From: a virus | Taxonomy: Duplodnaviria; Caudoviricetes | Length of the DNA stretch: 30,692 bases | Virus record (IMG/VR): IMGVR_UViG_3300045107_000151 | Span: 1 to 30,692 of that record | Reading direction: 5' to 3' (one strand) | Shown here: one piece after another, positions 162-28,368 of the stretch | Layout of the letters: every line of letters begins with the position of its first letter | How positions within the stretch are numbered: the first letter of the stretch is position 1 | Notes under the pieces: model-generated | The model's database searches: none | Seen by the model: the letters and a program-made list of their open reading frames with translations, nothing else | Told to the model about the DNA's origin: nothing | Made by a program: the position numbers and the translations under genes

Positions 162-3100
162 TCACTGAATTTTGAGCTTCCTCTCCTTCGACGACTCGCG
201 CGCCTTATGCTCCAGCAGACGCTGCAAGCGCACCAACTCCCGCTCCCCCGGCGTGAGCGTGCCGAGCAGCTCCGGCTTGACGGCTATCGTCTCGAACTTC
301 GAGATCGCCGGCAGCCCCTGGAGCGCCTTCTTGACGTACTCCCGCTCGGCGATCGTCTCGTACTTCGGCATGTCCACGTCGGTCACCTTGGCCCCCGTCA
401 GCAGGTTGAGCGGCAGGGCGTAGGGGTCCCACTTCCTGGGGTCGGTGACCTGGCGCGCCGTCGTCGCCAGCCGGGCCGCCGGGCTGTTGAAGAGGATCTG
501 GTCGATCACCGGGTTCCCGGTCATGCTGAACAGGTCGCCCAACTCGCGGCCGCTGTAAAACTGCCGGTCGGCGGCGTACTCCAGCGGCGCCTTAAGGATC
601 GGGTTTAGCTGGCCCAAAAGCCCCATGAGGGTGTTCTGGATGCCGCCGCCCTTCAACATCTCGAACGCCTGGTCGGCGGGAAGGTCCAGCCGCGACAGGT
701 AGCGCTGCATCCCCTCCGGCGTGCGGCCGCCGATCGGGACCGCCAGCCCCTCGCCCATGTACGCGGGGAGGAACCCGCCCTGCTGCCGGGCGTCCAGCGC
801 CAGCCGCGCCATCTGGCCGTACAGCCCGCCCGGCTCCGCCGCCAGTTGGCCGATCACGGCAGGGATGTTTCCGCGAGCGTAAGAATAAAAGGGCATCAGC
901 CGCCGCATCACCGTCTTCTCGAACGGCGTCGTGGCGTTGGCCGTGTAGTCGAAGTGCGTGGCGAGCACCTCCCGCGCGGCCGCCTCCGGGCTGTAGCCCC
1001 GCTTCAGCAGCGACAGGTACTCCGTGCCACGGTTGACGCCCTCCACCACGTCGCCCAGTTCGCGGCCGGCGACGATCGGGGTGAACACGTCCCGCGTCGT
1101 GTTGACGCCGGCCACGTCCAGGGCGCGCGCCGGGTTCCAACTGGTGCCCTCGCGGCCGCCCTTGAGGATGTCCAGGACGGTCCCGAGGTCCTTCGGCGTG
1201 TTCCCCGGGATGCGTGACAGCACGTCGTCCAGTGCGTGCGGCAGGTTCACCGTCTGCCCGGCCGGCCCAACGATGTCCCGCCCGACGTGCGGAACGTGGC
1301 CGCCGATCCCCCAAGCAGCCATCATGCGGGCCAACTCGCCGGTGGCCTGCTCCGGCGTGAGGTTCCGGCCGGCGAAGATCGGCAGGTCGGCCGCCCACTC
1401 GATCGGCTTGCCCTGGAGGAGGCGGTACGCGTCGCCGGCCAGGCCAGGCGCGTCCGTGGCCCCGCGCGCGAGGTTGGCCACCTGCCCGGAGGTGAGGTTG
1501 CGGACGTGGAAGCCAGGCCACGGCGCCGTGACGTGGCTCTTGAACAGGTTCGTCAGCCAGTCGAATCCCCGGATGAGCGGGTTGAGCGCCTCCGGGTTGC
1601 TGAAGCTCCGCGTGTAGCGGCCGATCTCGGCGGCGATGTCGGCCGGGATGTACGTCGTGGACAGGTCGGCCAGAGGCGCCGCCCCCCGCTTGGCGCGGAG
1701 GGCGTTGATGCGGCCCAGCAGTTCGCCGGCCGCCCCTTGCAGCTGCGGCGCCGCCCCTCCGCCCGGCGCGAACACGGGCTGGCTGACGAGCCCCGCCTTC
1801 TTGAGCACCTGCTCGGCCGCCAGCGCGCCCTGGGGCGGCGTGGCGCCGGAGGCGATGTCGAGCGCGTGCTTCGCCAGGAGGTTCTGCGTGGCCTCGCCGG
1901 TGGCCCGCAGTCGGGCGAAGCGGTCGAAGTAGCTCAGGTAGTCCGCGACCGGGTGGTGACCGAAGAAGTTCAGCCGCTCCGGGATCTGTCCCAGCGCCGA
2001 CTGCATGTACTCCGCCGGCAGGTCGCCGATCCACTTCACCAGCTGGTTCGCCTGCGCCTGCTGCGAGGCCGGGTCCACGAGGTAGTTTTGCAGGATGTGC
2101 GCCGCCCGCTCCAGCGGCGTCCCCTGGTGGACGGCCGGGTCGAGGATCATCTTGTTGATCCCCTCCGTGCCCTCCTTGAACCCCTCCAGAATCGACTCGC
2201 GGCCGGTCATCAGGCGGGCGTCTGTCGCGCGCAGCGCGGCCATCGGGTCGCCGGCGCCGCCGGACACCCTGACGGGCTTCGCCCACTGGCGGGGGAAGTA
2301 GCCCATCGTGTCCATGAGCGGGTCGGCCCACTCCTTCAGGTTGATCCCCAGCCGCTCGGCGACCTGCCGGGCGTTGGCCAGATCCTGGCGCATCGCCTGG
2401 GCGATCGTGTTGACCTGCGGGTTCGAGTGCGAGGCGAGCCCTTCGAGCACGGGCCGCAGCTCGGAGGCGTCCTTGACGCCCAGCGCCGCCAGTTCCTGCC
2501 CGTAGCGGAGCCCGCGCTCGCGCGCCTCCGCCATGTACGGCAGGATTCGCTGGAAGGCGTCCTGGGCGGCCTCCGCGCCGGGCGCCGTCGTCGCCCCCAT
2601 GCGGCTGGAGTCGAACAGGGCGCCTAGGTGCCGGCCCAGCCAGCCGGCCGCCTTTCCCCCGTACTCGATCGCGTTGCCGGCGAGTCCGGGCGGGGTGACG
2701 TTGTACAGGTGGCCAAGCCCGTAGGGCAGCCCCTGCATGTAGCGGTGCGCCCCGGCCAGCGCCTGGCCGGCGGCGGCCGCCTTGTCGAGGGCCGCCACGC
2801 CGGCCTGGCCGGTCAGCATCGGTGCCTCCTCGCCGACGAACGGGATCTTCCAGCCGAAGAGGCCGCCGAGCGGCTCATTCAGGAGCGGCTGAAGCTTTGC
2901 CGCCCCGCCGGCCGCCGCCTCGGCCGCGCCCTGGAGCGCCGGCTCAGCCTGGAGGATGTCCGCGAGCGAGCCGGTGAGGCGCCCCCTGGCGGTGCTGGGC
3001 AGCCGGCTGATCTTCTGCGCCACCTTGCCGGCCTGCGTCGCCGCGCCGGTCCCGAAGGTAAGGTACGTCCCCGGGTCCGTGGCGACCTCCAGCCCGAGCC

Positions 3101-3473
3101 CGCCCAGGAAGTTCCCCCAGGTGTCCTCCTTGTCGGCGAGCCCGGCGTCGCGCAGAAGGTCGCGGCCGGAGACGCGGTCGGCGTAGTCCGTGATACCCAG
3201 CGTGTCCGAGAAGGGGAGGACGGAGAGCAGTTCACGCGGCCTGCCGCCCAGGAGGCCACGGATCGCCCGGCCGCCGAACGTCTTCTCCAGGACGGAGCCG
3301 ACGTAGCCCAGGCCTCCCAGCGCCGCCCCGCCGATGCGCGGCAGGAGCCCCTGCTCTTCCTGCTCCGACAGCGGCTGGATCTTCGCCGGCTGCTGGCCGG
3401 GGGGCTGGAGCGCCTGCGCCTGCATCCGTTGCAGGCGGGCCATCGGGTCGATGATCTCGTTAAGGTCGAGCAT
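162..3473 (-). CDS. Large internal virion / ejection-type protein (1103 aa)
   Basis: Long Ala/Gly/Leu-rich ORF at the end of the virion module. The C-terminal FDY..TPFEK.VMRRLMPFYSY..GNIP motif resembles C-terminal regions of large phage internal/polyvalent proteins. The N-terminal module is shared with ORF 17522..18544. Confidence 0.7.
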   Translation of the reverse strand: MLDLNEIIDPMARLQRMQAQALQPPGQQPAKIQPLSEQEEQGLLPRIGGAALGGLGYVGSVLEKTFGGRAIRGLLGGRPRELLSVLPFSDTLGITDYADRVSGRDLLRDAGLADKEDTWGNFLGGLGLEVATDPGTYLTFGTGAATQAGKVAQKISRLPSTARGRLTGSLADILQAEPALQGAAEAAAGGAAKLQPLLNEPLGGLFGWKIPFVGEEAPMLTGQAGVAALDKAAAAGQALAGAHRYMQGLPYGLGHLYNVTPPGLAGNAIEYGGKAAGWLGRHLGALFDSSRMGATTAPGAEAAQDAFQRILPYMAEARERGLRYGQELAALGVKDASELRPVLEGLASHSNPQVNTIAQAMRQDLANARQVAERLGINLKEWADPLMDTMGYFPRQWAKPVRVSGGAGDPMAALRATDARLMTGRESILEGFKEGTEGINKMILDPAVHQGTPLERAAHILQNYLVDPASQQAQANQLVKWIGDLPAEYMQSALGQIPERLNFFGHHPVADYLSYFDRFARLRATGEATQNLLAKHALDIASGATPPQGALAAEQVLKKAGLVSQPVFAPGGGAAPQLQGAAGELLGRINALRAKRGAAPLADLSTTYIPADIAAEIGRYTRSFSNPEALNPLIRGFDWLTNLFKSHVTAPWPGFHVRNLTSGQVANLARGATDAPGLAGDAYRLLQGKPIEWAADLPIFAGRNLTPEQATGELARMMAAWGIGGHVPHVGRDIVGPAGQTVNLPHALDDVLSRIPGNTPKDLGTVLDILKGGREGTSWNPARALDVAGVNTTRDVFTPIVAGRELGDVVEGVNRGTEYLSLLKRGYSPEAAAREVLATHFDYTANATTPFEKTVMRRLMPFYSYARGNIPAVIGQLAAEPGGLYGQMARLALDARQQGGFLPAYMGEGLAVPIGGRTPEGMQRYLSRLDLPADQAFEMLKGGGIQNTLMGLLGQLNPILKAPLEYAADRQFYSGRELGDLFSMTGNPVIDQILFNSPAARLATTARQVTDPRKWDPYALPLNLLTGAKVTDVDMPKYETIAEREYVKKALQGLPAISKFETIAVKPELLGTLTPGERELVRLQRLLEHKARESSKERKLKIQ

Positions 3474-3818: not shown

Positions 3819-3829
3819 CCTTGCACTCC

Positions 3830-4093: not shown

Positions 4094-4133
4094 CGTCTCC
4101 TCCGTGAGCTATGGTTGGTGCTGGAGGTGCCAC

Positions 4134-4364
4134 ATGAGTAACGCCCAACGCCTCGTCTTGATCGCCGGCTTATCTGTGAGTTTCTGGCTCGTATGGAATA
4201 ACCAGGCGGGCGCCCTGGTTTACGTTTGGATCGCCGCTGCCGCCGCCTACCTCTACATTCCCCTCACCGACCTTCATGAGCCGGCGAGGGAGGGCCGTAA
4301 CGCTGACGCCGCCGAGCAGGATCAGGGCGCCGGCCGCCCGGCCTCGATCAATTTCCGCAAGTAG
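4134..4364 (+). CDS. Small two-TM membrane protein on the opposite strand (76 aa, MSNAQRLVLIAGLSVSFWLVW...); superinfection-exclusion candidate
   Basis: SD GGAGGTG before ATG 4134; fills the gap between minus-strand genes; lower GC; two hydrophobic stretches. Function is inference only. Confidence 0.6.
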   Translation: MSNAQRLVLIAGLSVSFWLVWNNQAGALVYVWIAAAAAYLYIPLTDLHEPAREGRNADAAEQDQGAGRPASINFRK

Positions 4365-5680
4365 CCCGCCAGGGCGGTCGCCTGCTTGGCGGATTCCTCC
4401 CGGCCGCCGGCGGACAGTCGCGGCGTGGTCGGGAAGAACCTGGGGGCGGTGCCGAAGGTTAGGCTGCCCAGGTCGGGGATCGTCATCGTCGCGCTGTCAA
4501 ACCCGAACGGGCTGAAGCCGCCGCTGAAACTGATGTCGCCTACGCTCCTGCTATTGCCGGACTGGCGGGCCAACTGGTGCAGGTGCCTGGCGGCGTCGGC
4601 GATGAGCTTATCGCCCGAGCCGTAGGCGCCGGACCTGGCCTCGTTCACCAGCGCCTTGATCTGGTCCGGGGTCACGTCGGCCCTGCCGGCCAGCGCGGCG
4701 GCGATCGCGGCGGGGTCGAACTTGCCGCCGGTGGCCTGCCCCTGCGGCGTGAACGTCTTGCCGAACGCCTGCGCGATCAGGTCGCGCTGCGCCTTGCCCT
4801 CGCGCGTCGCCCTCTCCATCTTGTCGAAGGCGTCCTCACTCTTGCCGCCGGCCGCCTGAGCCGGGCCGCCGGTGTCGATCTTGACCGGCGGCTGCTCCCC
4901 GGTGATGCGGACGCCGCCGGGGCCGGGGTTGACACCCTCGCGCATCTCCTTGAGGCTGTCGCGGGCGGCGCGGCGCTCCTCCGGCGTGGAGTTGGGGTCC
5001 ATCGCCCTTTGGGCCGCCGCCCCGGCGAACGCGGCCTCGATGCTGCCCTTGCGGGCCATCTCCGCGATCGACTTCTGCGTCACGCCCTTCTCGCGCTCCA
5101 GCTGGAGCGCCAGGGCGTCCTGCTGCGGGCCGCGCACCTTGGCGCCGTACTCTTGCAGCGCCGCCTCCGCGCGCTTCGTGTCGCCCTGGAACGCCTGCTC
5201 GCCCAGCCCCATCGCCTTCAGGAACGCATCGACGGGGGCCTTGGCCGCCTGGTCCACGAGCGGCGCCAGCTGGGCGTTAGCCTGCGCGGCCAGGTGCGCC
5301 TGCGCCGCCGGGGAGTGCGCCTGGTCGAAGATCCCTAGCCCGAACGGCAGCCGGGTCGCGTTCGCCGCCCGCTGCCCGTCCTCCTGGGCGCGGCGGAGCA
5401 TGGCGTCGATGGCGGCGGCATCGCCGGCCTGGGCGCGCTGGAGCATCCCGGAGGTGTCGCCGGAGAGGTAGTCGTTTGTCGCCTTCTGCATGGACGGCCC
5501 CTGCTGGCGCGCCGGCGCCAGCGAGCGCCAGTCGCCCTCCGCCGGCTCGTCGCCGGGGACCACCTTGCCGGCGGCGTCGATGCGCAGGCGCTTCGGCTGC
5601 CCCTGCATCCGCACCGCCGGCTGTGCGTTTTGCAGCTGGTCCACCCACGGCGCGCCGAAAAGCGTCGGGTCCACGTACAT
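4322..5680 (-). CDS. Putative internal virion/ejection protein (452 aa)
   Basis: Ala/Gln/Gly-rich, apparently helical ORF between tail genes and the large internal protein; SD GGGTGAG. Confidence 0.6.
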   Translation of the reverse strand: MYVDPTLFGAPWVDQLQNAQPAVRMQGQPKRLRIDAAGKVVPGDEPAEGDWRSLAPARQQGPSMQKATNDYLSGDTSGMLQRAQAGDAAAIDAMLRRAQEDGQRAANATRLPFGLGIFDQAHSPAAQAHLAAQANAQLAPLVDQAAKAPVDAFLKAMGLGEQAFQGDTKRAEAALQEYGAKVRGPQQDALALQLEREKGVTQKSIAEMARKGSIEAAFAGAAAQRAMDPNSTPEERRAARDSLKEMREGVNPGPGGVRITGEQPPVKIDTGGPAQAAGGKSEDAFDKMERATREGKAQRDLIAQAFGKTFTPQGQATGGKFDPAAIAAALAGRADVTPDQIKALVNEARSGAYGSGDKLIADAARHLHQLARQSGNSRSVGDISFSGGFSPFGFDSATMTIPDLGSLTFGTAPRFFPTTPRLSAGGREESAKQATALAGYLRKLIEAGRPAP

Positions 5681-5690
5681 GACTCACCCC

Positions 5691-6470
5691 TCAGACTGCG
5701 GAGAAGATGCCGCCCAGCAGCTGGCTCAGGATGCCGGACTGGACCTTGTTCCGCTCGATCTCCTCGTTCTGACGGGAGGCGAACTGCCCCTCCCGCGCCT
5801 TCTGCGCTTCGAGCACCTGCTGCGCGTTCCCCTGGGCCGCGTTCCACCGCAGTTGCTGCTCGGCCGCCGTGTTCCCCGCCAGGTTCTGGCCGAACATCGC
5901 GTTGTTGAGCGCCATCGCCAAGGGCGACCGGGAGCCGTACCCCTTCCCCGCCATGTCCTTGCTCAGCTGCGCCTGCCTGGACGCGAGGGCGGCGTCATTC
6001 TGCGCCCGCGTCGCGTTGACCTGGTTCTGGATGTCCATCTGGCTGTAGATCGGGGCGTCGGAGATCGTGGGCTGCTGCCCGACCTGCCCCTGCCCACGGT
6101 AGCCCGACATCCAGCTGCCAGGCCCGCCGGCCAGGAGGTTCTGCGCGAACGGCCAGATCTGCTCCCACCGCTGCTGCTTGAGCAGGTAGGGGTACTTCGA
6201 GGCGTCCGACTGCATCTGGGCGATCCGCGCCTGGTTGGCGTACCCCTCGCGCTGGACGCCGGCGTTCACGTCCACGCCGTAGCGCTGCGCCGCCAGTTGC
6301 GCGTCCTGGAGCTGCTTCTGGGACTTGATCTGCTGCTGCTGGTTGACGTAGTCCATCCCGCTCCGGCTGGCCACGTCAGGGTCCACCTGCGTGTACGGCG
6401 TCAGCAACTTTATGCCGCCGCCGCCACTGGTCGCGTTCAAGTTCCAGGGCATGTACCCTTGCACGGGCAT
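5691..6470 (-). CDS. Putative internal virion/DNA pilot-type protein (259 aa)
   Basis: Gln/Ala-rich coiled-coil character, C-terminal GILSQLLGGIFSAV amphipathic tail; SD GAGGTGA. Confidence 0.65.
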   Translation of the reverse strand: MPVQGYMPWNLNATSGGGGIKLLTPYTQVDPDVASRSGMDYVNQQQQIKSQKQLQDAQLAAQRYGVDVNAGVQREGYANQARIAQMQSDASKYPYLLKQQRWEQIWPFAQNLLAGGPGSWMSGYRGQGQVGQQPTISDAPIYSQMDIQNQVNATRAQNDAALASRQAQLSKDMAGKGYGSRSPLAMALNNAMFGQNLAGNTAAEQQLRWNAAQGNAQQVLEAQKAREGQFASRQNEEIERNKVQSGILSQLLGGIFSAV

Positions 6471-6481
6471 GGGTCACCTCG

Positions 6482-7075
6482 TTAATGAGTGGCGGTAATT
6501 CCTGGCATGAAGTTCGGCCGGGCGCCGGCGTAGCCGTAATTCTTGGCCACCTGGTACTCCCAGTCCTGCATCGCCCGCTCGACGTTGTTCATCGCCGGCA
6601 TGAACGCGGCCGGGCGGCCGTAGGCGTTGTAGATCCGCGACCGCTCCGCCTGCCGCGCCTGCTCCAGGCCCGGGTGGGCCTGCTCCAGCCAGGAGCCGAA
6701 GCTGAGCCAGTCGCTGCGATCGACGCCGGCCGGCACCGTCGGCTGCCGGCCCCCACTTTGCTGCTGTTGCTGGGCCGCCGAACCCTGCCCCTGCTCGGAC
6801 GGCGCCGTGGCCTGCTGCTGGGCCGGGTTGTAGTTGGCGCCGTGGCCGGAGAAGAAGTTCGCCTGGCCACGGTAGGGGGCGAAGTAGTCCACCAGCGGAC
6901 TCGGCTGTGAGGCCGCCGGCTGCTGGGCCTGCTGAGTCGCGGCCGGCTGTTGCTGCTGCCCGCCCAGGTAGTTCGCCAGGGGGCTGCGCGGGGCTGAATA
7001 CATGAGGCTGCGGTTCACCCAGCCCTGCTGCTGGGCCGGATCAACCATGCCACCAGTCATCGTCGATACGGCCAT
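6482..7075 (-). CDS. Gln-rich low-complexity putative virion protein (197 aa)
   Basis: Poly-Q tracts; first gene of the ejection-type cluster; SD GGGGTGAG. Confidence 0.6.
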   Translation of the reverse strand: MAVSTMTGGMVDPAQQQGWVNRSLMYSAPRSPLANYLGGQQQQPAATQQAQQPAASQPSPLVDYFAPYRGQANFFSGHGANYNPAQQQATAPSEQGQGSAAQQQQQSGGRQPTVPAGVDRSDWLSFGSWLEQAHPGLEQARQAERSRIYNAYGRPAAFMPAMNNVERAMQDWEYQVAKNYGYAGARPNFMPGITATH

Positions 7076-13020: not shown

Positions 13021-14181
13021 TCACGAAACGTCCTGGCCCAACGGGAAGTCGCGCAGTCGCAGGGGCCAGATGCGGTTGTCGCCGACGCGCTCCTCCTTGA
13101 AGTTTCGCGCGTCCGCCTCGCGGGCCTGGATGAGCGCGCGCTGGTAGACCTGCTCCAACTGTTCCCGGTCGCGCTTGTTGCGGGCGTGGCCCGTTTCCAA
13201 CTCCGCCTTGCGCAGCAGCGCGGTCAGCATGCTGCCGACCTCCACGTCTACCGGGTCGGAGATCAGGTACTTGACCGCCGAGTAACTGTTGGTCCAGGGG
13301 TAGTCCACGGTAAGCGCCGTGTCGCTATCGACCGAGATCACCACCCGCTCCTCCTGCGCCGGGCTGCCGCCCCAGCGGGCGGTCGGGACGGCAGTCCTCG
13401 TCCCCAGGCGGATCACCGACCCGGCCATGAGCGAGGTGAAGGCGGTCCCCGAGCCGGCGATGGTGGTCTGGCTGGCGGTTGCGGTCACCGTGCCGGCCGA
13501 ATAGGCGTCCAGCCGCAACTGCCTGGGGCGGCGCTTGTAGAGGTAGTCCATCGAGTAGAGGTTGTCGGGCGGCGGGTAGAACCCGATCGCCAGCGTGTTC
13601 TGGAAGTTGGGGTCGCCCAGGATCGCGTAACTGAACGGCGTCGCCGTGCCGCGCCAGATCCGCTGCCGCGACAGCCAAGTGGAGGGGTGCTCCGGGTGGA
13701 GGATGCGCGACTGGGTGGCGATCTGAAGCTCGCCCATCGCCTGGAAGTTTGACGGCAGCGGGTAGGTGTCCCGGAAGATCGTGAAGGCGGTGTCGGTGCT
13801 GATGTCCGCCCCGGGGTTGCTATTGGTCGAGAGTTGGAGCCGCGTCGAGTCGATCCGCGCGTACACCTCGTAGTTGACGTTGCCGATGTCTAGCGTGCCG
13901 CTCGCCGCCCAGTCCGGCCAGAGGCCGCCGGTCAGGGTGACGAGTCGCTCGTAGGCACCGCCGGTGTGGTCGTACTGGATAGTGCCCGTGGCGTAGGGCG
14001 CCACGGTGGTGAGGCGCCCCTTGGCGTAGTAGTACGTCCAGTTGTGCGCGTTCCCCAGCTCGCGCAGCGCGTGGATCGACGCGCGGCGGGCGTCCCGCCT
14101 CGCCTCCTGGCCGGGGTTACCCCCCATCCAGTCAACCAGGTGGGTGATCACGTCGTCCCAGGTCGTCAGTTCGACTCTCAT
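13021..14181 (-). CDS. Head-tail adaptor / tail tubular protein A-like with inserted beta domains (386 aa)
   Basis: N-terminal helices ending ...ELGNAHNWTY, YPLPSNF and IGFYPPPD...MDYLYKRRP motifs, C-terminal helices; these follow the adaptor layout. Confidence 0.65.
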   Translation of the reverse strand: MRVELTTWDDVITHLVDWMGGNPGQEARRDARRASIHALRELGNAHNWTYYYAKGRLTTVAPYATGTIQYDHTGGAYERLVTLTGGLWPDWAASGTLDIGNVNYEVYARIDSTRLQLSTNSNPGADISTDTAFTIFRDTYPLPSNFQAMGELQIATQSRILHPEHPSTWLSRQRIWRGTATPFSYAILGDPNFQNTLAIGFYPPPDNLYSMDYLYKRRPRQLRLDAYSAGTVTATASQTTIAGSGTAFTSLMAGSVIRLGTRTAVPTARWGGSPAQEERVVISVDSDTALTVDYPWTNSYSAVKYLISDPVDVEVGSMLTALLRKAELETGHARNKRDREQLEQVYQRALIQAREADARNFKEERVGDNRIWPLRLRDFPLGQDVS

Positions 14182-16419: not shown

Positions 16420-16905
16420 TCACGTCCCCTGGATGTTGATCCCGGTGAAGGTCTTGGTGTGGTTGCCCTCCGTGGAGTCGAAGGCCAGCCCGGTGAGGTT
16501 CTCGACCACGATCCCCCACTTCCTGGGCAGCACGCCGCCGAACGCCCGCGCCACGGACATGGGGTGACTCTTCCACGTCAGCGCGCCGGAGGCCGGCGTC
16601 TGGATGCAGCCGATGATCCGCAGGTTCGTCGGGCTGCGCATCGTCAGGGCGGCGTCCGAGCCCGTTACGTTGTCGCCGTAGTTCGTGCCGTCCTCAGAGC
16701 CGTAGGCGTACACGTTGATAACCTGATTGTTGCCCGGCGTCCCCGTCGCCAGTTTGATCGCCAGGTACACATGCGCGTCCGTGTACTTGTTGCTGGTGTT
16801 ATCGATCGCCGTACATTCGCGCGCGGCGCCGTCCCCCAAGCTGGCGAGGGAAATCGTGATCCCGGCGGAGGTCGCGTACAGCGGCTGGAACGTGCTTGAC
16901 ATCAC
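16420..16905 (-). CDS. Putative jelly-roll structural protein (161 aa)
   Basis: Beta-rich; LP.KWGIVVEN.TG.AF motif seen in phage structural proteins encoded next to LamG genes. Confidence 0.6.
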   Translation of the reverse strand: MMSSTFQPLYATSAGITISLASLGDGAARECTAIDNTSNKYTDAHVYLAIKLATGTPGNNQVINVYAYGSEDGTNYGDNVTGSDAALTMRSPTNLRIIGCIQTPASGALTWKSHPMSVARAFGGVLPRKWGIVVENLTGLAFDSTEGNHTKTFTGINIQGT

Positions 16906-17525
16906 TCACTCCAGTGAGGTTTCCGCGCTTCGACGATCTGCTCGCGCAAATCTTCCGTGTCCACATAGGCCCGCTCCGCCGGCGGCACCGCCTCCAGCGC
17001 CTGGGCCATCTCCCGCCGGACGATGTCCTCCGCCACGGCGCCGCGCTTCTGGTTCGTGTCCCGCTCGCGGGGAGTCACGCTGACGGAGCCCTCGCATCCC
17101 CAGCCGCGCGTCTCGCAGACCCGCTGCACGTCGCCGCGACCGCCGACCCAGGCTTCCGGGTCGCCCGGGAAGCGGGCGAGCCCGGCCATGTACACCTTAC
17201 CCTTGGGGTCAACGCCGGCCTCACGCGCCTGCTTGTGGTAGAGGTCGCCGACCCACTCCTCGTTCGAGAACTGGCTGCCGTTGCAGTGCCCCTCCAGGAA
17301 CTCCCGGTCGGTGTTGCTCATGGGCGGCCGCTGGAGCGCCAGCATCTCGGCGAGCGCGTGCGGCGCCGCGTCCAGCCGCATGGCGTTGTAGAACGCCTGC
17401 CGGTGGGGATCGTCGCTCACCAGTGGCATGGCGCGGCCGACGCGCAGCATAGCATGGACCATCGCCTTGTAGTCCGGGTCGCCGGCCAGACGGAACCGCT
17501 CTAGCCTGTCCGCGTAACTCGTCAT
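16902..17525 (-). CDS. Conserved-looking phage hypothetical protein (207 aa)
   Basis: ATGA overlap with the upstream gene; globular composition (GKVY..GLARFPGDPEAWV). Confidence 0.7.
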   Translation of the reverse strand: MTSYADRLERFRLAGDPDYKAMVHAMLRVGRAMPLVSDDPHRQAFYNAMRLDAAPHALAEMLALQRPPMSNTDREFLEGHCNGSQFSNEEWVGDLYHKQAREAGVDPKGKVYMAGLARFPGDPEAWVGGRGDVQRVCETRGWGCEGSVSVTPRERDTNQKRGAVAEDIVRREMAQALEAVPPAERAYVDTEDLREQIVEARKPHWSE

Positions 17526-18544
17526 TGCTCGCCCTCCGTGACGGGCTGACCGTTGGGCCAGAGCCGCTTCGCCAGGCCGAGCCCCAGCCCGGCCGTCGCC
17601 GCGCCGCCCAGCGCGTGCGGGGCGTAGCCGACCGCCCGGTACAGGTTCGCGGCCGCCGGGCTGAACTCCCCGACCACCGAGGCGTAGTGGCCACGGTCGA
17701 TCGGGTTGCCCAGCGGGTTGTTGAACAGGAACCGCCCCGCCCCGCGCAGCTGCTCCTTCAACCCCCTGTTCTCGTAGGTGAACGCCTGAAGCTCGTCGAG
17801 CAGCGTCGCCAGCCCGGACCTTGTCGCCCCTATGTTCTGGCCGTCGCCGTAGGCGTTGGCCGCCAGTCGGCTGAGGAAGGGCAGCCCTTCGGTGTTCCCC
17901 TGCTTGACGGCCTGGTCCACCAGGCCGTGCAAAACCTCGTGCCGCACCGTCCTGGGGTCGGCGCCGGGAACGAACGCCGCCACGTTGTCCCTCCAGCGGT
18001 ACATCCCCTGGAGCCCGCTCGGCGCCTCCTCCATCATCCGCGAGGCGGTGCTGAGGAGGGCGTCGTCGCCGGCCACAGGCATCCCGCCGCCGGCGCCGCC
18101 CATGATCTTGCTGATCTCCGAGGCGTGCGGGTCCACCTCGATCACGTCGAAGCCGCGCCGCTTGCCCAGCATCCGGCCGACGCCGGCGGACGGCTGCCCC
18201 TTAGCCTGGGCGGCGTAGCGGTCCAGCCTGGCCGCCGGCTGCGACCGGCCTAACAGGCGACCCGCCCCCAGCGGGCCGGCGTAGGTCAGCGGGTTGGTCA
18301 GCGCGTCCACCGCCATCCCGGCCAGGTAGTTGCCCCAGTTGTCGTCCTCGCCGGCCAGCCCGTACTGCCGCAGCAGGTCGCGGCCGGACACCTTCCGCGA
18401 CGGGTCGAGCAGGCCGATCGTCTCGGCGCCGGGCAGCAGGTTGGCCAGCTGGTCGGGGCGGCCGGCGAGCAGACCGCGAACCGCAGCGCCGGGGCGGTCC
18501 AGGGCGTCGCCGACGAAGCCCAGCGCGTCCAGGAGCATACTCAC
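17522..18544 (-). CDS. Two-module protein: N-terminal module shared with the 1103-aa internal virion protein plus a zincin-like HExxH domain (340 aa)
   Basis: QGMY...RTVRHEVLH (H202-H206) and downstream DELQA; residues 4-88 align with residues 51-137 of ORF 162..3473; start overlaps the portal stop codon. Confidence 0.75.
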   Translation of the reverse strand: MSMLLDALGFVGDALDRPGAAVRGLLAGRPDQLANLLPGAETIGLLDPSRKVSGRDLLRQYGLAGEDDNWGNYLAGMAVDALTNPLTYAGPLGAGRLLGRSQPAARLDRYAAQAKGQPSAGVGRMLGKRRGFDVIEVDPHASEISKIMGGAGGGMPVAGDDALLSTASRMMEEAPSGLQGMYRWRDNVAAFVPGADPRTVRHEVLHGLVDQAVKQGNTEGLPFLSRLAANAYGDGQNIGATRSGLATLLDELQAFTYENRGLKEQLRGAGRFLFNNPLGNPIDRGHYASVVGEFSPAAANLYRAVGYAPHALGGAATAGLGLGLAKRLWPNGQPVTEGEQ

Positions 18545-20514
18545 GGCTGGCCCCCTTTCTTGGGCGGCCGCCCGCCCTTGCCGTTTTCCTCACCAGGCGG
18601 CCGGCCGGGCGGGGGAGGCGGTGGAGGCGGGGGAGGCGGCTGAAGCATGTACTTGCTCGCGTCCAGGTCGATCGACTTGGCCCAGTCCTCGACGAGCGAG
18701 TTGATCGGGTTCACGTCGCCCGTCATCTGGGCGTACTGCATCAGCGGCTGGAATAGTTGCTGGATCGCCTGCTGCATGTTCTCCGCCTCCTGAGCCCGGT
18801 TCGGCTTGCGGGCGCTGTTCGCCTCGATGCGGTACTCCAGCTGGTAGAGGACGCCGGCCGGGTCGCTGGGCACCAGCAACTGCTCCCACATCTGGGCGCC
18901 GAGCGGGCCGAGCACCCGGACCACGTCGTCGCCCGTCAGGTGCCAGCGGGCGGCGAACGCCTCCTTGCGCGCCACGTCCGTCATCGCGTCCTCGACGCAG
19001 TTCGCCATGTCGTCGGGGCGGACGTTGATCGCGTCGCTCTTGATCTGCGCCTCCTGGGCGGAGCGCATCTGGCGGGCGCTCATGCCGTACATCAACTCCG
19101 TCAGGCCGACGCGCTGCTCGAAGGCGTGGGTCACCCGCTCGATCACGTTGTAAAGCTCCGGGTTGAACCCGGGGTGCTGCAAGAACTGGACGACCTGGTT
19201 GATCGGACCCAGCGCCTGCTCCAGCGTGATGACCGTGAAGTCAGAGCCGTGCTTGATGATCTCCTTCAACTCCTCGCCGGCGCTCTTGGCGATCGCCACG
19301 AAGTCCCGCGCCGACACCCGCACCTTCGCCGCGAGGAAGCTGTAGGCCCAGTTGAGGAACTTCAGCTCGCCCAGCCCCGGCTTCAGGTGACTCATGGGCC
19401 ACAGCTTGCCCGGCCGCCAGTGGAAGGAAAAGAAGCTGACGGGCCAGGCGTTGTCCGCCCAGTACGGCGTCTCCCACCCCGTCTGCTGCTGGACCAGCGG
19501 GAGCGCCTGCCGGAGCAGCTGCTCCTGCCCCTCGTCGAACAGGTCGCACAGGGGCGGCGGGATGTTGAGCGGGTAGTTGGGGCAGCTCTCGGCGACCACC
19601 AGGTAGACGTAGTCCCCCAACATGTCGAACTTCTTCCGCCACTGCTCGGGGATGCTGACCAGCCGGCCGCCCATCCCCATCTTGCTGTAGACTTCCCAGT
19701 AGACGATCAGGTCCGCCGTCCGCCCTTGCTTCCGCTTGTACTCCTGCTCCGGGTCGGTGGCGACGGCAGCCTGCTGGGTGCTGCTCTCCAGGCCGGGCGA
19801 CGCCCGCAGCTTCTCGACGGGGATGTTGAACTCCCGCGCCACCTCCCACGCCGGGCGGCAGCGGCGGCGGGCGATCCACTTCACGTCGGAGATCTTCGCC
19901 GCGTCGGGGTCCATGAGGAGGTTGTCCACGGAGTCGTGGAAGCTCCCCACCCACGTCTGCGTCGCCCCCGGCGGCCGGTGCCGCTGCGTCCACAGGACGC
20001 CCATCCCCTTAATGAGCGCCTCCGTGATCGTCCACCGGGAGTTGTTCTTCAGGTCCAGCGGCGTCGGGGTGTAGTTGAGGTACTTCTCCAGAAGCTCCGC
20101 CCGCGCCTTGTCGATCTCGGCCCCCTGCTGCACCAGCATCATGTCCTGCTGGAGCCGCTGCCGCGCGACCGGGTCCGCCTGGACATTCGGGTACATCGAC
20201 ATCGGCGGCTGCACGACCTGGCGCGGGTTCACCTTGCGGACGGGATTCCTGTGGTATAACGCCGGGCCGAACAGCTGCACCAACTCCGCCGTCTTGTTGA
20301 TGGTGATGCGCACGCTGGGCGCGCGCATCTCCATCTCGTCCACGTCGAAGCCGCCGCTGTTCGGGCCGCGCGGCTTGTACAGCCAGTCGTAAGGGCCGTC
20401 GAAGAAGCGCATGCACTCCTGGGCGTCGTCGTCGAACTCCGCCTTCTTGTGCTCGTAGGCGAGCTGGAGCAGCTTGAGCCACTGCCCGACAACAGGTCTG
20501 AGTGCGTCCGCCAT
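18541..20514 (-). CDS. Portal protein (657 aa)
   Basis: Size, position after terminase, and motifs TINKTAELVQLFGPALY..NP, EALIKGMGVLW, DNLLMDPDA..ISDVKWIARR, FEQRVGLTELMYG...RSAQEAQIK typical of P22-like portals; poly-Pro C-terminal tail. Confidence 0.85.
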   Translation of the reverse strand: MADALRPVVGQWLKLLQLAYEHKKAEFDDDAQECMRFFDGPYDWLYKPRGPNSGGFDVDEMEMRAPSVRITINKTAELVQLFGPALYHRNPVRKVNPRQVVQPPMSMYPNVQADPVARQRLQQDMMLVQQGAEIDKARAELLEKYLNYTPTPLDLKNNSRWTITEALIKGMGVLWTQRHRPPGATQTWVGSFHDSVDNLLMDPDAAKISDVKWIARRRCRPAWEVAREFNIPVEKLRASPGLESSTQQAAVATDPEQEYKRKQGRTADLIVYWEVYSKMGMGGRLVSIPEQWRKKFDMLGDYVYLVVAESCPNYPLNIPPPLCDLFDEGQEQLLRQALPLVQQQTGWETPYWADNAWPVSFFSFHWRPGKLWPMSHLKPGLGELKFLNWAYSFLAAKVRVSARDFVAIAKSAGEELKEIIKHGSDFTVITLEQALGPINQVVQFLQHPGFNPELYNVIERVTHAFEQRVGLTELMYGMSARQMRSAQEAQIKSDAINVRPDDMANCVEDAMTDVARKEAFAARWHLTGDDVVRVLGPLGAQMWEQLLVPSDPAGVLYQLEYRIEANSARKPNRAQEAENMQQAIQQLFQPLMQYAQMTGDVNPINSLVEDWAKSIDLDASKYMLQPPPPPPPPPPPGRPPGEENGKGGRPPKKGGQP

Positions 20515-21063: not shown

Positions 21064-21482
21064 CCCGCAGCAGCCACGGTCAGGTAATTCGCCTTCTTGC
21101 TGTACCAGTCCAGCCACATCCGCTCCGACTCCTCCGGCGAGGACAACTCGTCGCAGTCGATCAGCGTGTGCAGGTGCCTGGCGATCGCCTCCCAGCGGAG
21201 GCGGAAGCCGTCGTCCGGCGTCTGGTAGAACACCTGCTCCGCCCCGTCGGCGTCCTCGGGGGCGCAGGCCAGCTTCCACAACTGGGCGGCCACGTCGCGC
21301 AGCCGCGCGCCCTCCATCCCCTGCATCTTCGCCGGGCCGCGCGACGCCAGCGCCAGCCAGGGCAGTTGATGCTCGTAGGCCAGCCCCTCCCACGGCTCCG
21401 GCTCGCGGCCGCACAACTGATCGTTCAGCCTGTGCAGCGACTGGGCGGTTTCGGCCACGGACAGTTCAACGTCGTTCAGCAT
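21057..21482 (-). CDS. Hypothetical acidic helical protein (141 aa)
   Basis: TGATG coupling with the terminase stop; fills the gap. Confidence 0.65.
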   Translation of the reverse strand: MLNDVELSVAETAQSLHRLNDQLCGREPEPWEGLAYEHQLPWLALASRGPAKMQGMEGARLRDVAAQLWKLACAPEDADGAEQVFYQTPDDGFRLRWEAIARHLHTLIDCDELSSPEESERMWLDWYSKKANYLTVAAAGG

Positions 21483-23293
21483 CAGTACAACCTCCCGCCA
21501 GGGCCAAGGTGAATGACGTGCGGCCCGTCCCGGTCTTTCTTCCGCTGCATCTTCAGCCGGAAGGACTCCAGGGGGCCGCCCACCGGCCGCTTCTCCTCCT
21601 TGCGCGGCACGAACTTCGGGTCGTGCAGCGCCATGTAACGGAGGTCGTCCATCATGTGGTTGTCCTTCCGCTGGTCAGGCGCCTCCTGCACGACACCCGC
21701 CACCCGCTTCCTGTGGTAGCGCTTGATCTCGTAGAGGAAGTTGGGCAGTTTCTGCTCCATAACCCGCAGCCTGGCCTTGCCGTTCTCCCTCACCCGCAGA
21801 AGCCCCTGCACCGCCAGGACGCCGGCCATCACGTCGTCGTTCGCCAGGATGAAGCCGTGGCCGGTGGCGAGACTCTTGACCTTGTTCTGCTGGAGCGCCT
21901 CCGAATACTGCTGCATCACCGTCTTGCCGGCGGCCACCTGCGTCGTCAGCGCCATGTTCGGGTCCATGACGAACGCCTGGAAAACCTGCCCCTCGCAGGC
22001 CCGCCGCATCGCCTCGCCGAACAGGGCCGCGTTCGTCTCGCGCAGGTACAGCTCGTCGTAGAGCAGGACGATGTCCTCCTCGTCCCTGGGCGGGACCGCG
22101 ACGAACAGCACGGCGCAGACGCGGTGGCCCGGGTCAACGTAGGCGTACCGCGTCCAGTGCTTCGGCACCTCCTTGAGCGGGTGGCCGTGGATGAGCATGT
22201 TGAAGGTCGGGTAGACCTTGTAGCTCGTGATCGCGTACTCCCCGCCGACGCGGACCCGCGCCTCCTCGTCCGTCAGGTCCGCCGCGAACTCCCTCCGGGC
22301 CTCGTCGGAGATGTGCTTGTTCTCCGAGAGGAGGACGACGAACTCGCTGATGCGCCGCTTGCCCTCCGGCTTATCTACGCGCTCCTTCTCCGCCCGCTCG
22401 TGCAACTCGTACAACTGGTCGGTGCCGGCCTGCGGCGTCGCCGACCAGATCCCCCGACCCTTGCGGTCCACGATGCGGGCCGCCATCTCCGGGTACCAGG
22501 CCGGGTCGATGATCTCCTCGTCGAACCAGAAGCCGTCGATCGGGCTCCCCTGCGGCGGCTTGCCCAGCGAGGAGAAGAAGTACAACTCCCACCCGTTGGT
22601 AAGGCGAATGACGTTGGGGACGTTCTCCTTCTTGTTCTCCCAGCCGACCTCCGCCACGAACCGCTTGGGGATCAGCGGCTGCGCCGGCCTGGCCTCGCCC
22701 TCCCGCGCCGCGTCCTCCGGAGTCCAGGGGCGGAAGGCGCGCCACCGGCCGGAGTGCCGGTCGCGGATAATCTTGAAGGCGTTCGGCCGGAACAGCTTCG
22801 CGTACATCACCTTGCCGAGGTGCTTCTGGTCCTTGCCGACGAGGAACCAGCAGCCGTCCCGGACGGGGTACTTGCCGTAGGGGTCTTGCCCGGTTACCGC
22901 CCTGGCGACTTCGACCGCCGCCGTGAGGGTCTTGCCGCTTCGATTACTACCTCTAAGGATGCGATACGGGGAGTTACACGCAAGGAACCGCTCCTGCTCG
23001 GGCAGCGGCTCAAACAGGTTGAGCGCCTCGACGCGGCGCTTCGCCAGTTCGTTCACCAGGGTCCGCGTCCGCTGGAGGGTGAACGCCGAGACGTAGCCCT
23101 TGCCGTACAGGTCCGCCTCGTCGAGCGTGACGCGGTCCGCGTCCACCGAGACGCCCGGGTCGGGGTCCGTTGGCAGGCGGGCCGGCGGCACGACCTTCGG
23201 CTGCGGCCGGTTGCGCGGCGCCCGGTCAGGGTCCGGCAGGCTCTCCAGGGTTTGCTCCGGCCCCTTCCGCCGGGCCGGCCTCTTCTTCGCCAT
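21482..23293 (-). CDS. terL: Terminase large subunit (603 aa)
   Basis: Walker A GSNRSGKT, Walker B GFWFDEE, coupling motif SATP, nuclease motifs YVDPG and HMMDDLRY; exact start uncertain. Confidence 0.93.
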   Translation of the reverse strand: MAKKRPARRKGPEQTLESLPDPDRAPRNRPQPKVVPPARLPTDPDPGVSVDADRVTLDEADLYGKGYVSAFTLQRTRTLVNELAKRRVEALNLFEPLPEQERFLACNSPYRILRGSNRSGKTLTAAVEVARAVTGQDPYGKYPVRDGCWFLVGKDQKHLGKVMYAKLFRPNAFKIIRDRHSGRWRAFRPWTPEDAAREGEARPAQPLIPKRFVAEVGWENKKENVPNVIRLTNGWELYFFSSLGKPPQGSPIDGFWFDEEIIDPAWYPEMAARIVDRKGRGIWSATPQAGTDQLYELHERAEKERVDKPEGKRRISEFVVLLSENKHISDEARREFAADLTDEEARVRVGGEYAITSYKVYPTFNMLIHGHPLKEVPKHWTRYAYVDPGHRVCAVLFVAVPPRDEEDIVLLYDELYLRETNAALFGEAMRRACEGQVFQAFVMDPNMALTTQVAAGKTVMQQYSEALQQNKVKSLATGHGFILANDDVMAGVLAVQGLLRVRENGKARLRVMEQKLPNFLYEIKRYHRKRVAGVVQEAPDQRKDNHMMDDLRYMALHDPKFVPRKEEKRPVGGPLESFRLKMQRKKDRDGPHVIHLGPGGRLY

Positions 23294-23618: not shown

Positions 23619-24386
23619 TCAGCTCGGCGCGGCGGTTTGCGGCGGGGCGGGAGGCTCCGGGCCGAACCGCTTCGTCTTCCGCCCCTTCCAGTTGTGCCCC
23701 ATCGGCGCCGGCTCGCTCTCCAGGTGGAGGACGACGACTTCCGGCAGCAGGATACGCCTCCGCCGGTCCCAGTGCATGGCGAACTTGATGTCGGAGTGGC
23801 CGGCGTCGGAGTTGCAGTCCGGGTAGTCCTTCCACCGCATGCCCGAGTGGATGCCCTCCTTGTTGTGCCACATTTGGAAGAAGCCGATCGGCACGTACCC
23901 GTGCTTGCCGCGAATCACCCTGGTGCCGACCGACTTGCCCTCGGGGAAGTTGCAGCACAGGTGGTAGCCGTGCTGCGCGTGCAGATAACCCCGGCGCTGG
24001 AACTCCTGCCACTCCTCCCAGGACCGCACGTTCACGCGGTCGCAGCCGTAGATGCACTCCCTGTCCAGGCCGGCGACCGTGAGCATTCGCCGGAACTGCG
24101 GCGGAAGCACAATGTCCGCGTCGAGGTGTAGCACCCAGGCGTCCGTGTTGATGTAGTTGAGCCCCAGGGAGATTCCGCGCCCCTTGTTGAACTTCCCTTC
24201 GCTGTAGAACTCGCCGGTGGTGATACAGCCAAGGTTCCACCGGCGGCACAACTCGATGGTTTCCTTATCATCCGGGGTCGTAATGATGGTCCAGTGGTCA
24301 AAATGCTGGTGGTTCCACCTCACGGTTTCCGCCAGGAAATCCGCGTAGTGGACGCAGACCGTGACAGCCTCGACCGCGATCGTCAT
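23619..24386 (-). CDS. GT-A fold glycosyltransferase (GT2-like), 255 aa
   Basis: N-terminal VTVCV.Y..FL..T, FNKGRGISLGL, WVLHLDAD (DxD), IGFFQ, SDIKF, VVLHL. Confidence 0.85.
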   Translation of the reverse strand: MTIAVEAVTVCVHYADFLAETVRWNHQHFDHWTIITTPDDKETIELCRRWNLGCITTGEFYSEGKFNKGRGISLGLNYINTDAWVLHLDADIVLPPQFRRMLTVAGLDRECIYGCDRVNVRSWEEWQEFQRRGYLHAQHGYHLCCNFPEGKSVGTRVIRGKHGYVPIGFFQMWHNKEGIHSGMRWKDYPDCNSDAGHSDIKFAMHWDRRRRILLPEVVVLHLESEPAPMGHNWKGRKTKRFGPEPPAPPQTAAPS

Positions 24387-25717: not shown

Positions 25718-26509
25718 TCACTTCTCCTCTTTCTTGAGCGCCATGAAGAGCCCGAAGGCGCCGATCGCCCAGGCGACCGTGGGCACCTTGGACAGGTCGA
25801 TGGGCGACGCGCCGCCGTCGGGCCTCACGTCGGGACGCCGCATGTCCGGGTCGCGGTACGGGTCGTAGTATGGGTCCGCCTTCCGCAGCGCCGCCGCGAG
25901 CCCCTCGGCCCCGTCCTGGTAGTCGCCCTGCCGGTGGAGCACGGTGCCGTCCGGCAGCTGAAGGTAGACCGTCGTGCCGGGGCCGGCGCTGAAGCCGGAG
26001 ACGGCCCAGTGCGAAGGCTCGTAGGACTGCACCGTCAGCTTGTCCGCCCACCCTGTCAGCGCCGGGTGGGTGGCCAGGTCCATAATCACCTCGCGCCGGG
26101 CCGCCTCGTCGCCGATCACCGTCAGGCGCAGCCTGTTGGCGTCGTCCGGGATATCCTTACCGGTCACCAGGCTGAGCGCCTGGTCGCGCGAAATCTCGCG
26201 GCCACGGCGGTAGAACCTCTGCTTGGAGGCGTCCAGCTTCGCGCGGTCCACGCCGTAATTCTGCTCGGCGGGCGGCGCGGTCCGGCGAGCCTCCAGCGGC
26301 TTTCCGGTGGCCTTGTCTACCCAGCGCCAGCGGTAAGCGCCCTCGACGTTCCAGTACCAGCCGTCGTCGTCCGGACCCTTGTTGGTGCCGGGCGGCGCGG
26401 TAACCTCCGGCCCCGGCACGCGGCAGGAGTCGCCGCCGCACTGCGCGAGCGCGGCGGGACCGGCCCAAACCAACGCCGCCGTCACGGCGGCGAGAATCAG
26501 CGTTCGCAT
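25718..26509 (-). CDS. Exported protein with signal peptide and C-terminal TM anchor (263 aa); possible degenerate thioredoxin-like domain
   Basis: ATG 26509 after GAGGT; MRTLILAAVTAALVWAGPAALA|Q signal; C-terminal VAWAIGAFGLFMALKK anchor. Confidence 0.7.
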   Translation of the reverse strand: MRTLILAAVTAALVWAGPAALAQCGGDSCRVPGPEVTAPPGTNKGPDDDGWYWNVEGAYRWRWVDKATGKPLEARRTAPPAEQNYGVDRAKLDASKQRFYRRGREISRDQALSLVTGKDIPDDANRLRLTVIGDEAARREVIMDLATHPALTGWADKLTVQSYEPSHWAVSGFSAGPGTTVYLQLPDGTVLHRQGDYQDGAEGLAAALRKADPYYDPYRDPDMRRPDVRPDGGASPIDLSKVPTVAWAIGAFGLFMALKKEEK

Positions 26510-26519
26510 CGTCGTGACC

Positions 26520-27314: not shown

Positions 27315-27568
27315 CAGTTGACCCTCCGCACGACGGAAAAGAGGACGGCGATCAGCAGGCCGACCAGGAGGCCGGAGACGAAGGTTTCGGCGATCGTCTT
27401 CTCGTTGACGCGCTCCAGCCCGCCGTCGATGCGCACCAGCATCTTGCCGACGGTCTGATCGACGCGGTCCATCGCCTTGTCGAAGCGGTCCATCGCCTTC
27501 TCGTGCGGCTCGACCAGGACGTGCGATTTCACGTTGAAGCCTCGCGGCTCGGCCTTCAGCGACTCCAC
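27314..27568 (-). CDS. Small coiled-coil protein with C-terminal TM helix (84 aa); holin-like candidate
   Basis: SD GGGAGGTGA; KAMDRFDKAMDRVD repeats; FVSGLLVGLLIAVLFSVV-RR. Confidence 0.65.
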   Translation of the reverse strand: MESLKAEPRGFNVKSHVLVEPHEKAMDRFDKAMDRVDQTVGKMLVRIDGGLERVNEKTIAETFVSGLLVGLLIAVLFSVVRRVN

Positions 27569-27571
27569 AGG

Positions 27572-28354: not shown

Positions 28355-28368
28355 GAGCCCTCCCAAGC

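What the first reader, a model, noticed from the sequence alone, without database searches (positions are those of the whole stretch)
17522..18544. Shared ~85-aa N-terminal module links a portal-adjacent HExxH protein to the giant internal virion protein: candidate capsid cargo-loading/injection tag
Seen: residues 4-88 of this ORF (18281-18535) align with residues 51-137 of the 1103-aa ORF 15 kb away (3063-3323). The pattern is LG[FY]VG..L...RGLL.GRP..L..LP...T.G..D....VSGRDLLR..GLA...D.WGN.L.G.....T.P.TY, about 42 of 87 positions identical by hand count. The C-terminal parts are unrelated: G.Y...T..HEVLH...E zincin-like here, a large helical body there. Established: short-tailed phages package and inject internal proteins, and zincin peptidase domains occur in phage polyvalent proteins delivered with DNA. 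Inference: the module is a portable address for loading or ejecting interchangeable effector domains, that is, a polymorphic cargo system. This gene is translationally coupled to the portal gene.
Basis: partly seen in the sequence, partly recalled or inferred. Interest (0 to 1): 0.85.

Follow-up and report, generated by a model that had tools for sequence, protein, structure and literature searches.

The report
Ejection-protein module carrying swappable phage enzymes
In a family of short-tailed phages that likely infect planctomycete bacteria, a 90-amino-acid piece from the front of a giant protein predicted to be injected into the host is also found on many small proteins with different enzyme-like ends, and it likely serves as a handle that would load those enzymes into the virus particle for delivery.

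Summary
In detail: 42 identical positions, BLASTP E 1e-21. The module matches no Pfam or PHROG family, yet occurs in 1,777 protein clusters.

Most copies sit at the N-terminus of a 1,000-1,400-aa protein. That protein's predicted fold weakly but repeatedly matches podophage ejectosome proteins (PhiM1, A4, T7 core).

A minority of copies head short proteins with 13 kinds of C-terminus. These include the HExxH zincin seen here (metal ligands invariant in 27 of 27), ART-PolyVal, an exoenzyme-type ART-like domain and kinase-like domains. There are up to four copies per genome, located after the portal gene or in tandem before the giant gene. A rough module tree needs at least four switches between giant and short proteins.

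Limits: 12 of 12 complete, more distant phages showed strong copies only in the giant protein. Portal adjacency is not fixed. No binding, packaging or injection is shown.

Best reading: a polymorphic cargo system whose carrier is the N-terminus of a gp16-like ejection protein. It works like T4 capsid-targeting sequences or MuF fusions but is neither. Verdict: new variant of a known kind.

The parts
17522..18544 (-). 340-aa short cargo-type protein: module + zincin-like domain + Gly/Ala-rich tail
18275..18538 (-). Module, copy 1 (residues 3-90); predicted all-helical, pLDDT mostly 80-90, followed by a low-confidence linker
17627..18193 (-). Zincin-like metallopeptidase domain (residues about 118-306)
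17927..17941 (-). HExxH motif (H202, E203, H206), invariant in 27 of 27 aligned homologues; third ligand candidate E251 (17792-17794) also invariant
17561..17626 (-). C-terminal Gly/Ala-rich, mildly hydrophobic helix, common in short module proteins and absent from the giant ones
162..3473 (-). 1103-aa giant protein, predicted T7 gp16-like ejection protein; some relatives carry inserted ART, HExxH and other domains
3054..3323 (-). Module, copy 2 (residues 51-140 of the giant protein)
4322..7075 (-). Three genes (452, 259, 197 aa) between the tail genes and the giant gene; candidate smaller ejection proteins by position and size only
   Evidence: inference
18541..20514 (-). Portal (SU10_portal PF23899, above cut-off); its stop overlaps the start of the 340-aa gene
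16902..17525 (-). 207-aa unknown gene that follows the cargo slot here and in L003, L004, L064, L084
8615..14181 (-). Tail-region genes, including an SU10-adaptor-like gene (13021-14181, just under cut-off); with terminase 21482-23293 and major capsid 29632-30636 they mark a podophage-type virion module

Best explanation
The 90-aa module is the conserved N-terminal region of a giant phage protein predicted to be a T7 gp16-like ejection protein, the same module heads short proteins with many different C-termini, and it likely acts as a handle that would let those short proteins join the ejection-protein core inside the capsid and be expelled into the host. SHOWN: the shared module; its presence on the giant protein and on 13 kinds of short C-terminus; up to four copies per genome; location inside the virion-gene operon; invariant zincin ligands in the window's cargo. 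PREDICTED: a helical, separately folded module; zincin fold of the cargo; ejectosome-like fold of the giant protein. INFERRED: the genes are expressed late; the module docks on the same core site as the giant protein's own N-terminus; after ejection its amphipathic Gly-rich helices and the C-terminal tail hold the enzyme at the host inner membrane, as a miniature of the giant protein whose middle also accepts enzyme insertions. The window's zincin would cut either a host defence protein or the phage's own core proteins; I put these at about even odds.
For: Family size: 1,777 clusters at E<=0.001. Of 266 proteins retrieved, 198 are giant, 12 are N-terminal giant fragments, 28 are module+zincin and 28 are other; of those 28, 17 have distinct long C-termini and 11 look truncated (one search was restricted to short proteins, so the shares are biased). 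Cargo classes: ART-PolyVal above cut-off (P0138); exoenzyme ART-like, weak (P0253, E 0.042); kinase-like by motif (3 proteins; one more in G490); a QSD-motif domain (2). The QSD domain also occurs inserted in 5 of 226 giant proteins, ART-PolyVal in 2, and HExxH motifs in 13 of 27 giants over 1,350 aa. Tandem arrays directly before the giant gene: G001, G002, G584, G585, L030, G490, and a broken copy in G541. Tree of 120 modules: the giant/short label needs 5 changes, at least 4 forced by starred branches; zincin needs 8, at least 4 forced. Giant model pLDDT 86, pTM 0.87. The only VIA rows with over 150 aligned residues are PhiM1 ejectosome (Z 5.7, rmsd 7.4, 223 aligned) and A4 pre-ejectosome (Z 5.3, rmsd 5.1, 159 aligned). 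The top Foldseek row is a T7 core protein (E 0.082). The giant-family HMM hits A4 gp26 (23 bits, E 2e-8 among 17 proteins).
Against: No experiment, and no binding partner identified. Each ejectosome match is below significance on its own (Z under 8; no Foldseek E<=0.001; the profile search of PDB sequences found nothing under E 0.07). In 29 of 30 records searched, including 12 of 12 complete ones, strong copies were only in giant proteins, though this search misses diverged copies (compare). An ART-PolyVal-like gene in the post-portal slot of G014 has no module, so cargo there may load by another route. The R..R..D.WGN residues are 92-98% conserved in giants but only 30-48% in non-zincin short proteins, so part of the surface is relaxed. 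The zincin cargo HMM hits 0 of 226 giants. Several short C-termini (X2, X3, X6-X8) have no recognisable enzyme. The tree has only 96 columns and its bootstrap did not settle.
Confidence: 0.55

Rival explanations
1. The module is mainly a membrane-insertion element. It anchors the giant protein and the short enzymes in the host inner membrane, and packaging is decided by something else, such as the C-terminal Gly/Ala tail.
For: The top VIA hit for residues 1-99 is the membrane lipoprotein MlaA (5nuo_D, Z 5.3, rmsd 4.1, 97 aligned), and HHalign gives a collinear 85-column match. T7 gp16 has a similar Gly-rich DPL-Y stretch at residue 338, inside the region described as putative TMH I, 243-410 (PMC8954989, passages). 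The module-less ART-like gene in G014 ends in an Ala/Gly-rich tail.
Against: HHalign probability is only 8.6%, and 3 of 39 block-shuffled controls score as high. None of 279 modules has a 19-residue hydropathy above 1.6. The module HMM does not score T7 gp16.
Confidence: 0.17
2. The module binds the portal, like the MuF/SPP1 gp7 proteins encoded next to portal genes, and loads cargo at the portal vertex.
For: A short module gene follows the portal directly in the window, L064, L067 and (portal identified by eye) L058, with different C-termini. Ejection proteins of N4 and related phages sit against the portal (PMC13434306, passages).
Against: A methyltransferase gene intervenes in L004 and L084, and other copies, including zincin ones, lie before the giant gene. 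No MuF hit in Pfam for 27 of 27 family members at E<=1.
Confidence: 0.1
3. The short proteins are not packaged. They work inside the infected or lysogenic cell, either bringing a protease or kinase to the assembling ejection proteins or decoying the ejection machinery of a superinfecting relative.
For: The family occurs in bacterial genomes (11 of 401 of one planctomycete class). MPTases are proposed to process virion proteins before packaging, as for P1 DdrB (PMC5512222, passages).
Against: The genes are co-oriented and overlapped within the virion operon. The cargo types (ART, kinase, MPTase) are those described for virion-delivered polyvalent proteins, and two of them (ART-PolyVal, QSD) recur inside the giant protein.
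Confidence: 0.12
4. The short genes are relics of partial duplication of the giant gene that supplied a start and leader to passing domains, and the module has no targeting role in them.
For: Broken copies exist (G541 with an internal stop; a G585 zincin split over two frames). Polar residues decay in short copies. Most distant phages show no short copy.
Against: Eight core positions stay at least 85% conserved in giant, zincin and other groups alike. The module boundary is kept across independent fusions, and the zincin ligands are invariant.
Confidence: 0.06

Closest known systems
Phage polyvalent proteins (Iyer et al. 2017, PMC5512222; passages read)
   Same: Virion-gene context; MPTase (HExxH plus Glu), ART-PolyVal and kinase domains; small cassette genes near a large protein; long relatives of the giant protein carry such domains as insertions.
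   Different: The window's giant protein has no recognised polyvalent domain. The cassettes here each carry their own copy of the large protein's N-terminus. No Pfam LPD or MPTase family matches the module or this zincin. The paper's FTP alignments were not seen.
T4 capsid targeting sequence and internal proteins IPI-III (PMC9026906; passages read)
   Same: A shared N-terminal address on otherwise divergent proteins that are packaged and injected; variable between relatives; used in counter-defence.
   Different: CTS is a 10-19-residue cleaved propeptide in a myophage. Here it is a folded 90-aa domain that is also part of a conserved, probably essential ejection protein in podophages. Targeting is proven for CTS and only inferred here.
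MuF / SPP1 gp7 fusions (as described in PMC5512222; passages read)
   Same: A head-associated N-terminal carrier fused to varied C-terminal enzymes; position next to the portal gene is recalled from memory.
   Different: No MuF match; several carrier copies per genome; the carrier derives from the ejection protein.
T7 gp16 / PhiM1 ejectosome protein / cyanophage A4 gp26-gp27 (PMC8954989, PMC12002296; passages read)
   Same: Last and largest gene of a run of candidate ejection genes; helical globular predicted fold; weak structural and HMM matches; a weak module-like stretch in A4 gp27.
   Different: No lytic transglycosylase domain was detected; similarity is below significance per method; paralogous cargo proteins were not described in the passages seen.
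MlaA/VacJ lipoprotein (PF04333)
   Same: Best structural match for the module (Z 5.3) and collinear profile alignment.
   Different: Not significant against shuffles; the module lacks the rest of MlaA; a lead only.

Membership tests
Zincin metallopeptidase (MPTase type) | HExxH on a helix and a Glu on the following helix | tested here: met
   H202, E203, H206 and E251 invariant in 27 of 27; on helices 197-215 and 240-257
Zincin metallopeptidase (MPTase type) | Small beta-sheet with an N-terminal helix before the HExxH helix; fold match to solved zincins | tested here: inconclusive
   Helices and four strands are predicted in that order; VIA zincin hits Z 3.5-4.7 only; no Foldseek E<=0.001
Zincin metallopeptidase (MPTase type) | Zn-dependent proteolysis | not testable with these tools
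   needs an assay
MuF head protein fusions | MuF domain at the N-terminus | tested here: not met
   no MuF family among Pfam hits at E<=1 in 27 of 27 members; none in PHROGs for 75 modules
T4-type capsid targeting sequence | 10-19-residue N-terminal propeptide removed by the prohead protease | tested here: not met
   the shared region is about 90 aa, predicted folded, and starts at residue 25-90 in giant proteins
T4-type capsid targeting sequence | Sufficient to package a foreign protein | not testable with these tools
   needs a reporter fusion
T7 gp16-like ejection protein (giant ORF) | Fold or sequence match to solved ejectosome proteins | tested here: inconclusive
   VIA Z 5.7 and 5.3; Foldseek E 0.082; HMM 23 bits to A4 gp26 among 17 proteins; nothing in the PDB profile search
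T7 gp16-like ejection protein (giant ORF) | Largest, last gene of a run of genes following the tail genes in a podophage-type virion cluster | tested here: met
   197, 259, 452 aa, two small ORFs, then 1103 aa
T7 gp16-like ejection protein (giant ORF) | Inside the capsid and ejected on infection | not testable with these tools
   no isolate; needs proteomics or cryo-EM
Phage polyvalent protein (giant ORF) | Two or more recognised conflict domains in one chain | tested here: not met
   no family hit in the window's giant; met only by long relatives such as L057 and P0228
MlaA/VacJ | Significant profile match to PF04333 | tested here: inconclusive
   HHalign probability 8.6%; 3 of 39 shuffles as high; VIA Z 5.3

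The most novel reading that the evidence does not exclude
Planctomycete podophages turned the N-terminus of their main DNA-ejection protein into a portable loading and delivery domain, and used it at least four separate times to build arrays of interchangeable injected enzymes (protease, ADP-ribosyltransferases, kinase). The 90-aa module alone would package and deliver any fused protein through a podophage ejectosome, exposing how ejection proteins are selected for the capsid.
Probability: 0.4. Interest if true: 0.85.

Novelty: new variant of a known kind. Interest (0 to 1): 0.66.

Why it matters
Podophage ejection proteins are packaged and expelled, but the passages read describe the ejection mechanism as unknown (PMC8954989) and name no portable loading signal for podophages; the proven case is T4's short CTS. 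A domain that evolution has repeatedly copied from the ejection protein onto unrelated enzymes points to the part that is likely sufficient for loading or delivery. That makes the question testable with one fusion. It also names a large unannotated family (1,777 clusters) and a set of candidate early-acting effectors against planctomycete defences.

Tried and rejected
Family libraries: Pfam, PHROGs and NCBIfam give no name for the module, the 340-aa protein or the giant protein. The best is phrog_36598, in 12 of 75 modules, at E 0.015.

PDB sequence profiles: nothing significant.

ESM Atlas: polyvalent-type clusters (LPD23, LPD5, LPD22) at 0.82-0.88 for the short protein and an LPD38 cluster at 0.95 for the giant; leads only.

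MlaA homology: not significant against shuffles.

Module versus T7, PhiM1 and phiKMV gp16-type proteins: no significant match. A4 gp27 residues 355-398 score only 10 bits.

Covariation (247 giants, Neff about 110): dominated by phylogeny and conserved columns; no usable contact.

AU test of one origin for the short proteins: not obtained.

Search for the genomic context of the ART cargo P0138: found only two ART-domain matches without the module region.

Cultured phages: only weak C-terminal matches to the giant protein, in 7 records, best E 2e-5.

Expression: no RNA holder listed. Rfam: no match at E<=0.1. Earlier scan findings: none.

Literature: eight full-text searches listed no paper on this family; two searches returned zero. 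The library lacks most subscription papers.

Rejected: a specific link to the portal; a classical transmembrane helix.

Full report
OBSERVATION. The window is a single-strand phage virion cluster: major capsid, terminase, an SU10-type portal, an SU10-adaptor-like gene and tail genes. The 340-aa ORF and the 1103-aa ORF share about 90 residues with 42 identities (BLASTP E 1e-21). The next-best pair among 41 window ORFs scores E 1e-4. The 340-aa gene overlaps the portal stop and the next start by four bases each. Contigs of two hot-spring runs from one sample, possibly the source, cover the region and bridge position 5075.

THE MODULE IS A LARGE UNNAMED FAMILY. A profile of 18 copies finds 1,777 clusters at E<=0.001, of which only the best 150 were listed. 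No Pfam, PHROG, NCBIfam or PDB-sequence family matches it. The 266 proteins retrieved by four searches split into 198 giant, 12 giant fragments, 28 module+zincin and 28 other. Of the last 28, 11 look like truncations and were set aside, and 17 have distinct C-termini. One search was limited to short proteins, so these shares overstate the short class.

CARGO CLASSES. With locus ORFs added, 54 short proteins fall into 13 C-terminal classes, grouped by BLAST and partly by eye (a few rows are near-duplicates). They are: zincin (31), ART-PolyVal (1; above cut-off), exoenzyme ART-like (1; weak, E 0.042), kinase-like by motif (3), a QSD-motif domain (2; my label), and eight unknown classes.

GENOME CONTEXT. 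Complete record G002 has four copies and G001 three, plus one by eye. Complete record G585 has three plus one by eye, in tandem. Complete record G584 has two diverged copies before the giant gene that the search missed. Short genes occupy two slots. One is after the portal (window, L064, L067, L058; with a FkbM methyltransferase gene between in L004 and L084). The other is just before the giant gene (L030, G001, G002, G584, G585, G490, G541). The zincin gene uses both slots, so portal coupling is not essential. Against generality: 29 of 30 further records, including 12 of 12 complete ones, showed strong copies only in giant proteins; these are lower bounds. G014 has a module-less ART-PolyVal-like gene after its portal.

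HOST. The module occurs in 11 of 401 genomes of the class that holds a Pirellulaceae MAG (9 of them strong). That points to planctomycete hosts for the family. The window's own host is not shown.

EVOLUTION. A tree of 120 modules (all 54 short; 66 of 225 giant, 35 of them drawn at random) needs 5 giant/short changes, at least 4 forced by starred branches. The QSD cargo sits on two separate module lineages and the zincin on at least four. The tree has 96 columns and an unsettled bootstrap, and the AU test was not obtained. Eight Gly/Pro/Leu positions stay at least 85% conserved in all groups, while four Arg/Trp/Asn positions fall from 92-98% in giants to 30-48% in non-zincin short proteins.

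STRUCTURE OF THE SHORT PROTEIN. The model (pLDDT 82) has a helical module, a low-confidence linker, then a domain with strands, an HExxH helix and a second helix carrying E251. These residues are invariant in 27 of 27 homologues and match the MPTase description in PMC5512222 (passages). Fold hits to zincins are many but weak (Z up to 4.7).

STRUCTURE OF THE GIANT PROTEIN. The model (pLDDT 86, pTM 0.87) gives only two long VIA alignments, both to ejectosomes (PhiM1 Z 5.7; A4 Z 5.3). The top Foldseek row is a T7 core protein (E 0.082), and the family HMM hits A4 gp26 at 23 bits among 17 hand-picked proteins. None is significant alone; their agreement plus gene order is the basis for calling it gp16-like. 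Longer relatives carry insertions in the middle: QSD in 5 of 226, ART-PolyVal in 2, and HExxH in 13 of 27 over 1,350 aa. A preprint reports that an LPD38- and metallopeptidase-bearing giant protein is in phi24B virions and proposes it as an ejection protein (10.64898/2026.04.10.717836, passages).

MEMBRANE LEAD. The module's best fold match is MlaA (Z 5.3), but the profile match is matched by 3 of 39 shuffles. No module has a classical transmembrane stretch (0 of 279). Zincin cargo proteins end in a mildly hydrophobic Gly/Ala tail (median hydropathy 1.0, against -0.2 in giants).

MECHANISM. The most economical reading is that the short proteins copy the giant protein's N-terminus to use whatever that region binds during head assembly, ride in the ejection core and reach the host with the DNA (confidence 0.55). 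The binding partner is unknown, and no complex prediction was available. Rivals are membrane anchoring with separate loading (0.17), action inside the producing cell (0.12), portal binding (0.10) and relic duplication (0.06).

COMPARISON AND VERDICT. It works like T4 CTS-bearing internal proteins (PMC9026906, passages) and MuF fusions, and draws on the polyvalent-protein enzyme pool, but fails the defining tests for CTS and MuF. Eight literature searches listed nothing on this family. No paper was read whole, no supplement was opened, and Iyer et al.'s FTP alignments could bear on novelty. New variant of a known kind; interest 0.66.

Noticed in passing
G034 (IMGVR_UViG_3300045256_000251), L167:1-11424, versus window 1-5074: A record nearly identical to window 5075-30692 switches inside the 452-aa gene to a different C-terminal half (448 aa in all) and lacks the giant gene; sigma-70-like, DUF932 and Y-family polymerase genes follow. 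Recombinant, decayed prophage or chimera. The window's version is bridged by a contig.
   Followed up: partly
L173:598-2383 (G014): The post-portal slot holds an ART-PolyVal-like gene without the module and a 294-aa gene with only a faint trace of the module's last helix: possibly a second way to load cargo.
   Followed up: partly
window 3477-3818; L007:6637-7005; L026:9088-9495: Small proteins with a hydrophobic N-terminus (signal-peptide-like by eye) sit inside the ejection operon; the L026 one weakly hits Gemmata paralog family TIGR03066 (E 7e-4, far below cut-off). Candidate superinfection-exclusion or host-derived genes.
   Followed up: no
window 23619-24386 and 27572-28822; L084:9300-9995, 13231-14136: Glycosyltransferase-like genes in the window (one weak Pfam GT2 hit, one by eye), and FkbM methyltransferase and (by eye) sulfotransferase-like genes in relatives, lie among head and tail genes; possible virion or surface modification.
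   Followed up: no
window 25718-27695: Two adjacent genes with signal-like N-termini, one with a Cys/His pattern suggesting a papain-like peptidase (by eye; no family hit). A lysis-cassette candidate; L004:1-1116 matches both.
   Followed up: no
P0005, P0221, P0057, P0193, P0196, P0228, P0251: An unnamed QSD-motif domain (weakly phrog_7348) moves between short cargo proteins and insertions in giant proteins.
   Followed up: partly
L204:1878-2534 (G541); L230:1495-2603 (G585): Broken module genes directly before the giant gene (an internal stop; a zincin split over two frames), as expected of turning-over cassettes.
   Followed up: no
L201 (cyanophage A-4L gp26 and gp27): gp26 matches the giant family from profile position 181 on, while a weak module-like stretch lies in the neighbouring gp27 (10 bits): possibly a split form of the same ejection protein.
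   Followed up: partly
window 3830-4093; L214:524-1111: A Gly/Pro/Met-rich low-complexity ORF lies in the cargo slot before the giant gene here and in the G490 prophage.
   Followed up: no
L007:9453-9842; L026:9462-9842: A MUG113/T5orf172-family gene is inserted directly before the giant gene in two relatives (for L007; L026 by eye).
   Followed up: no
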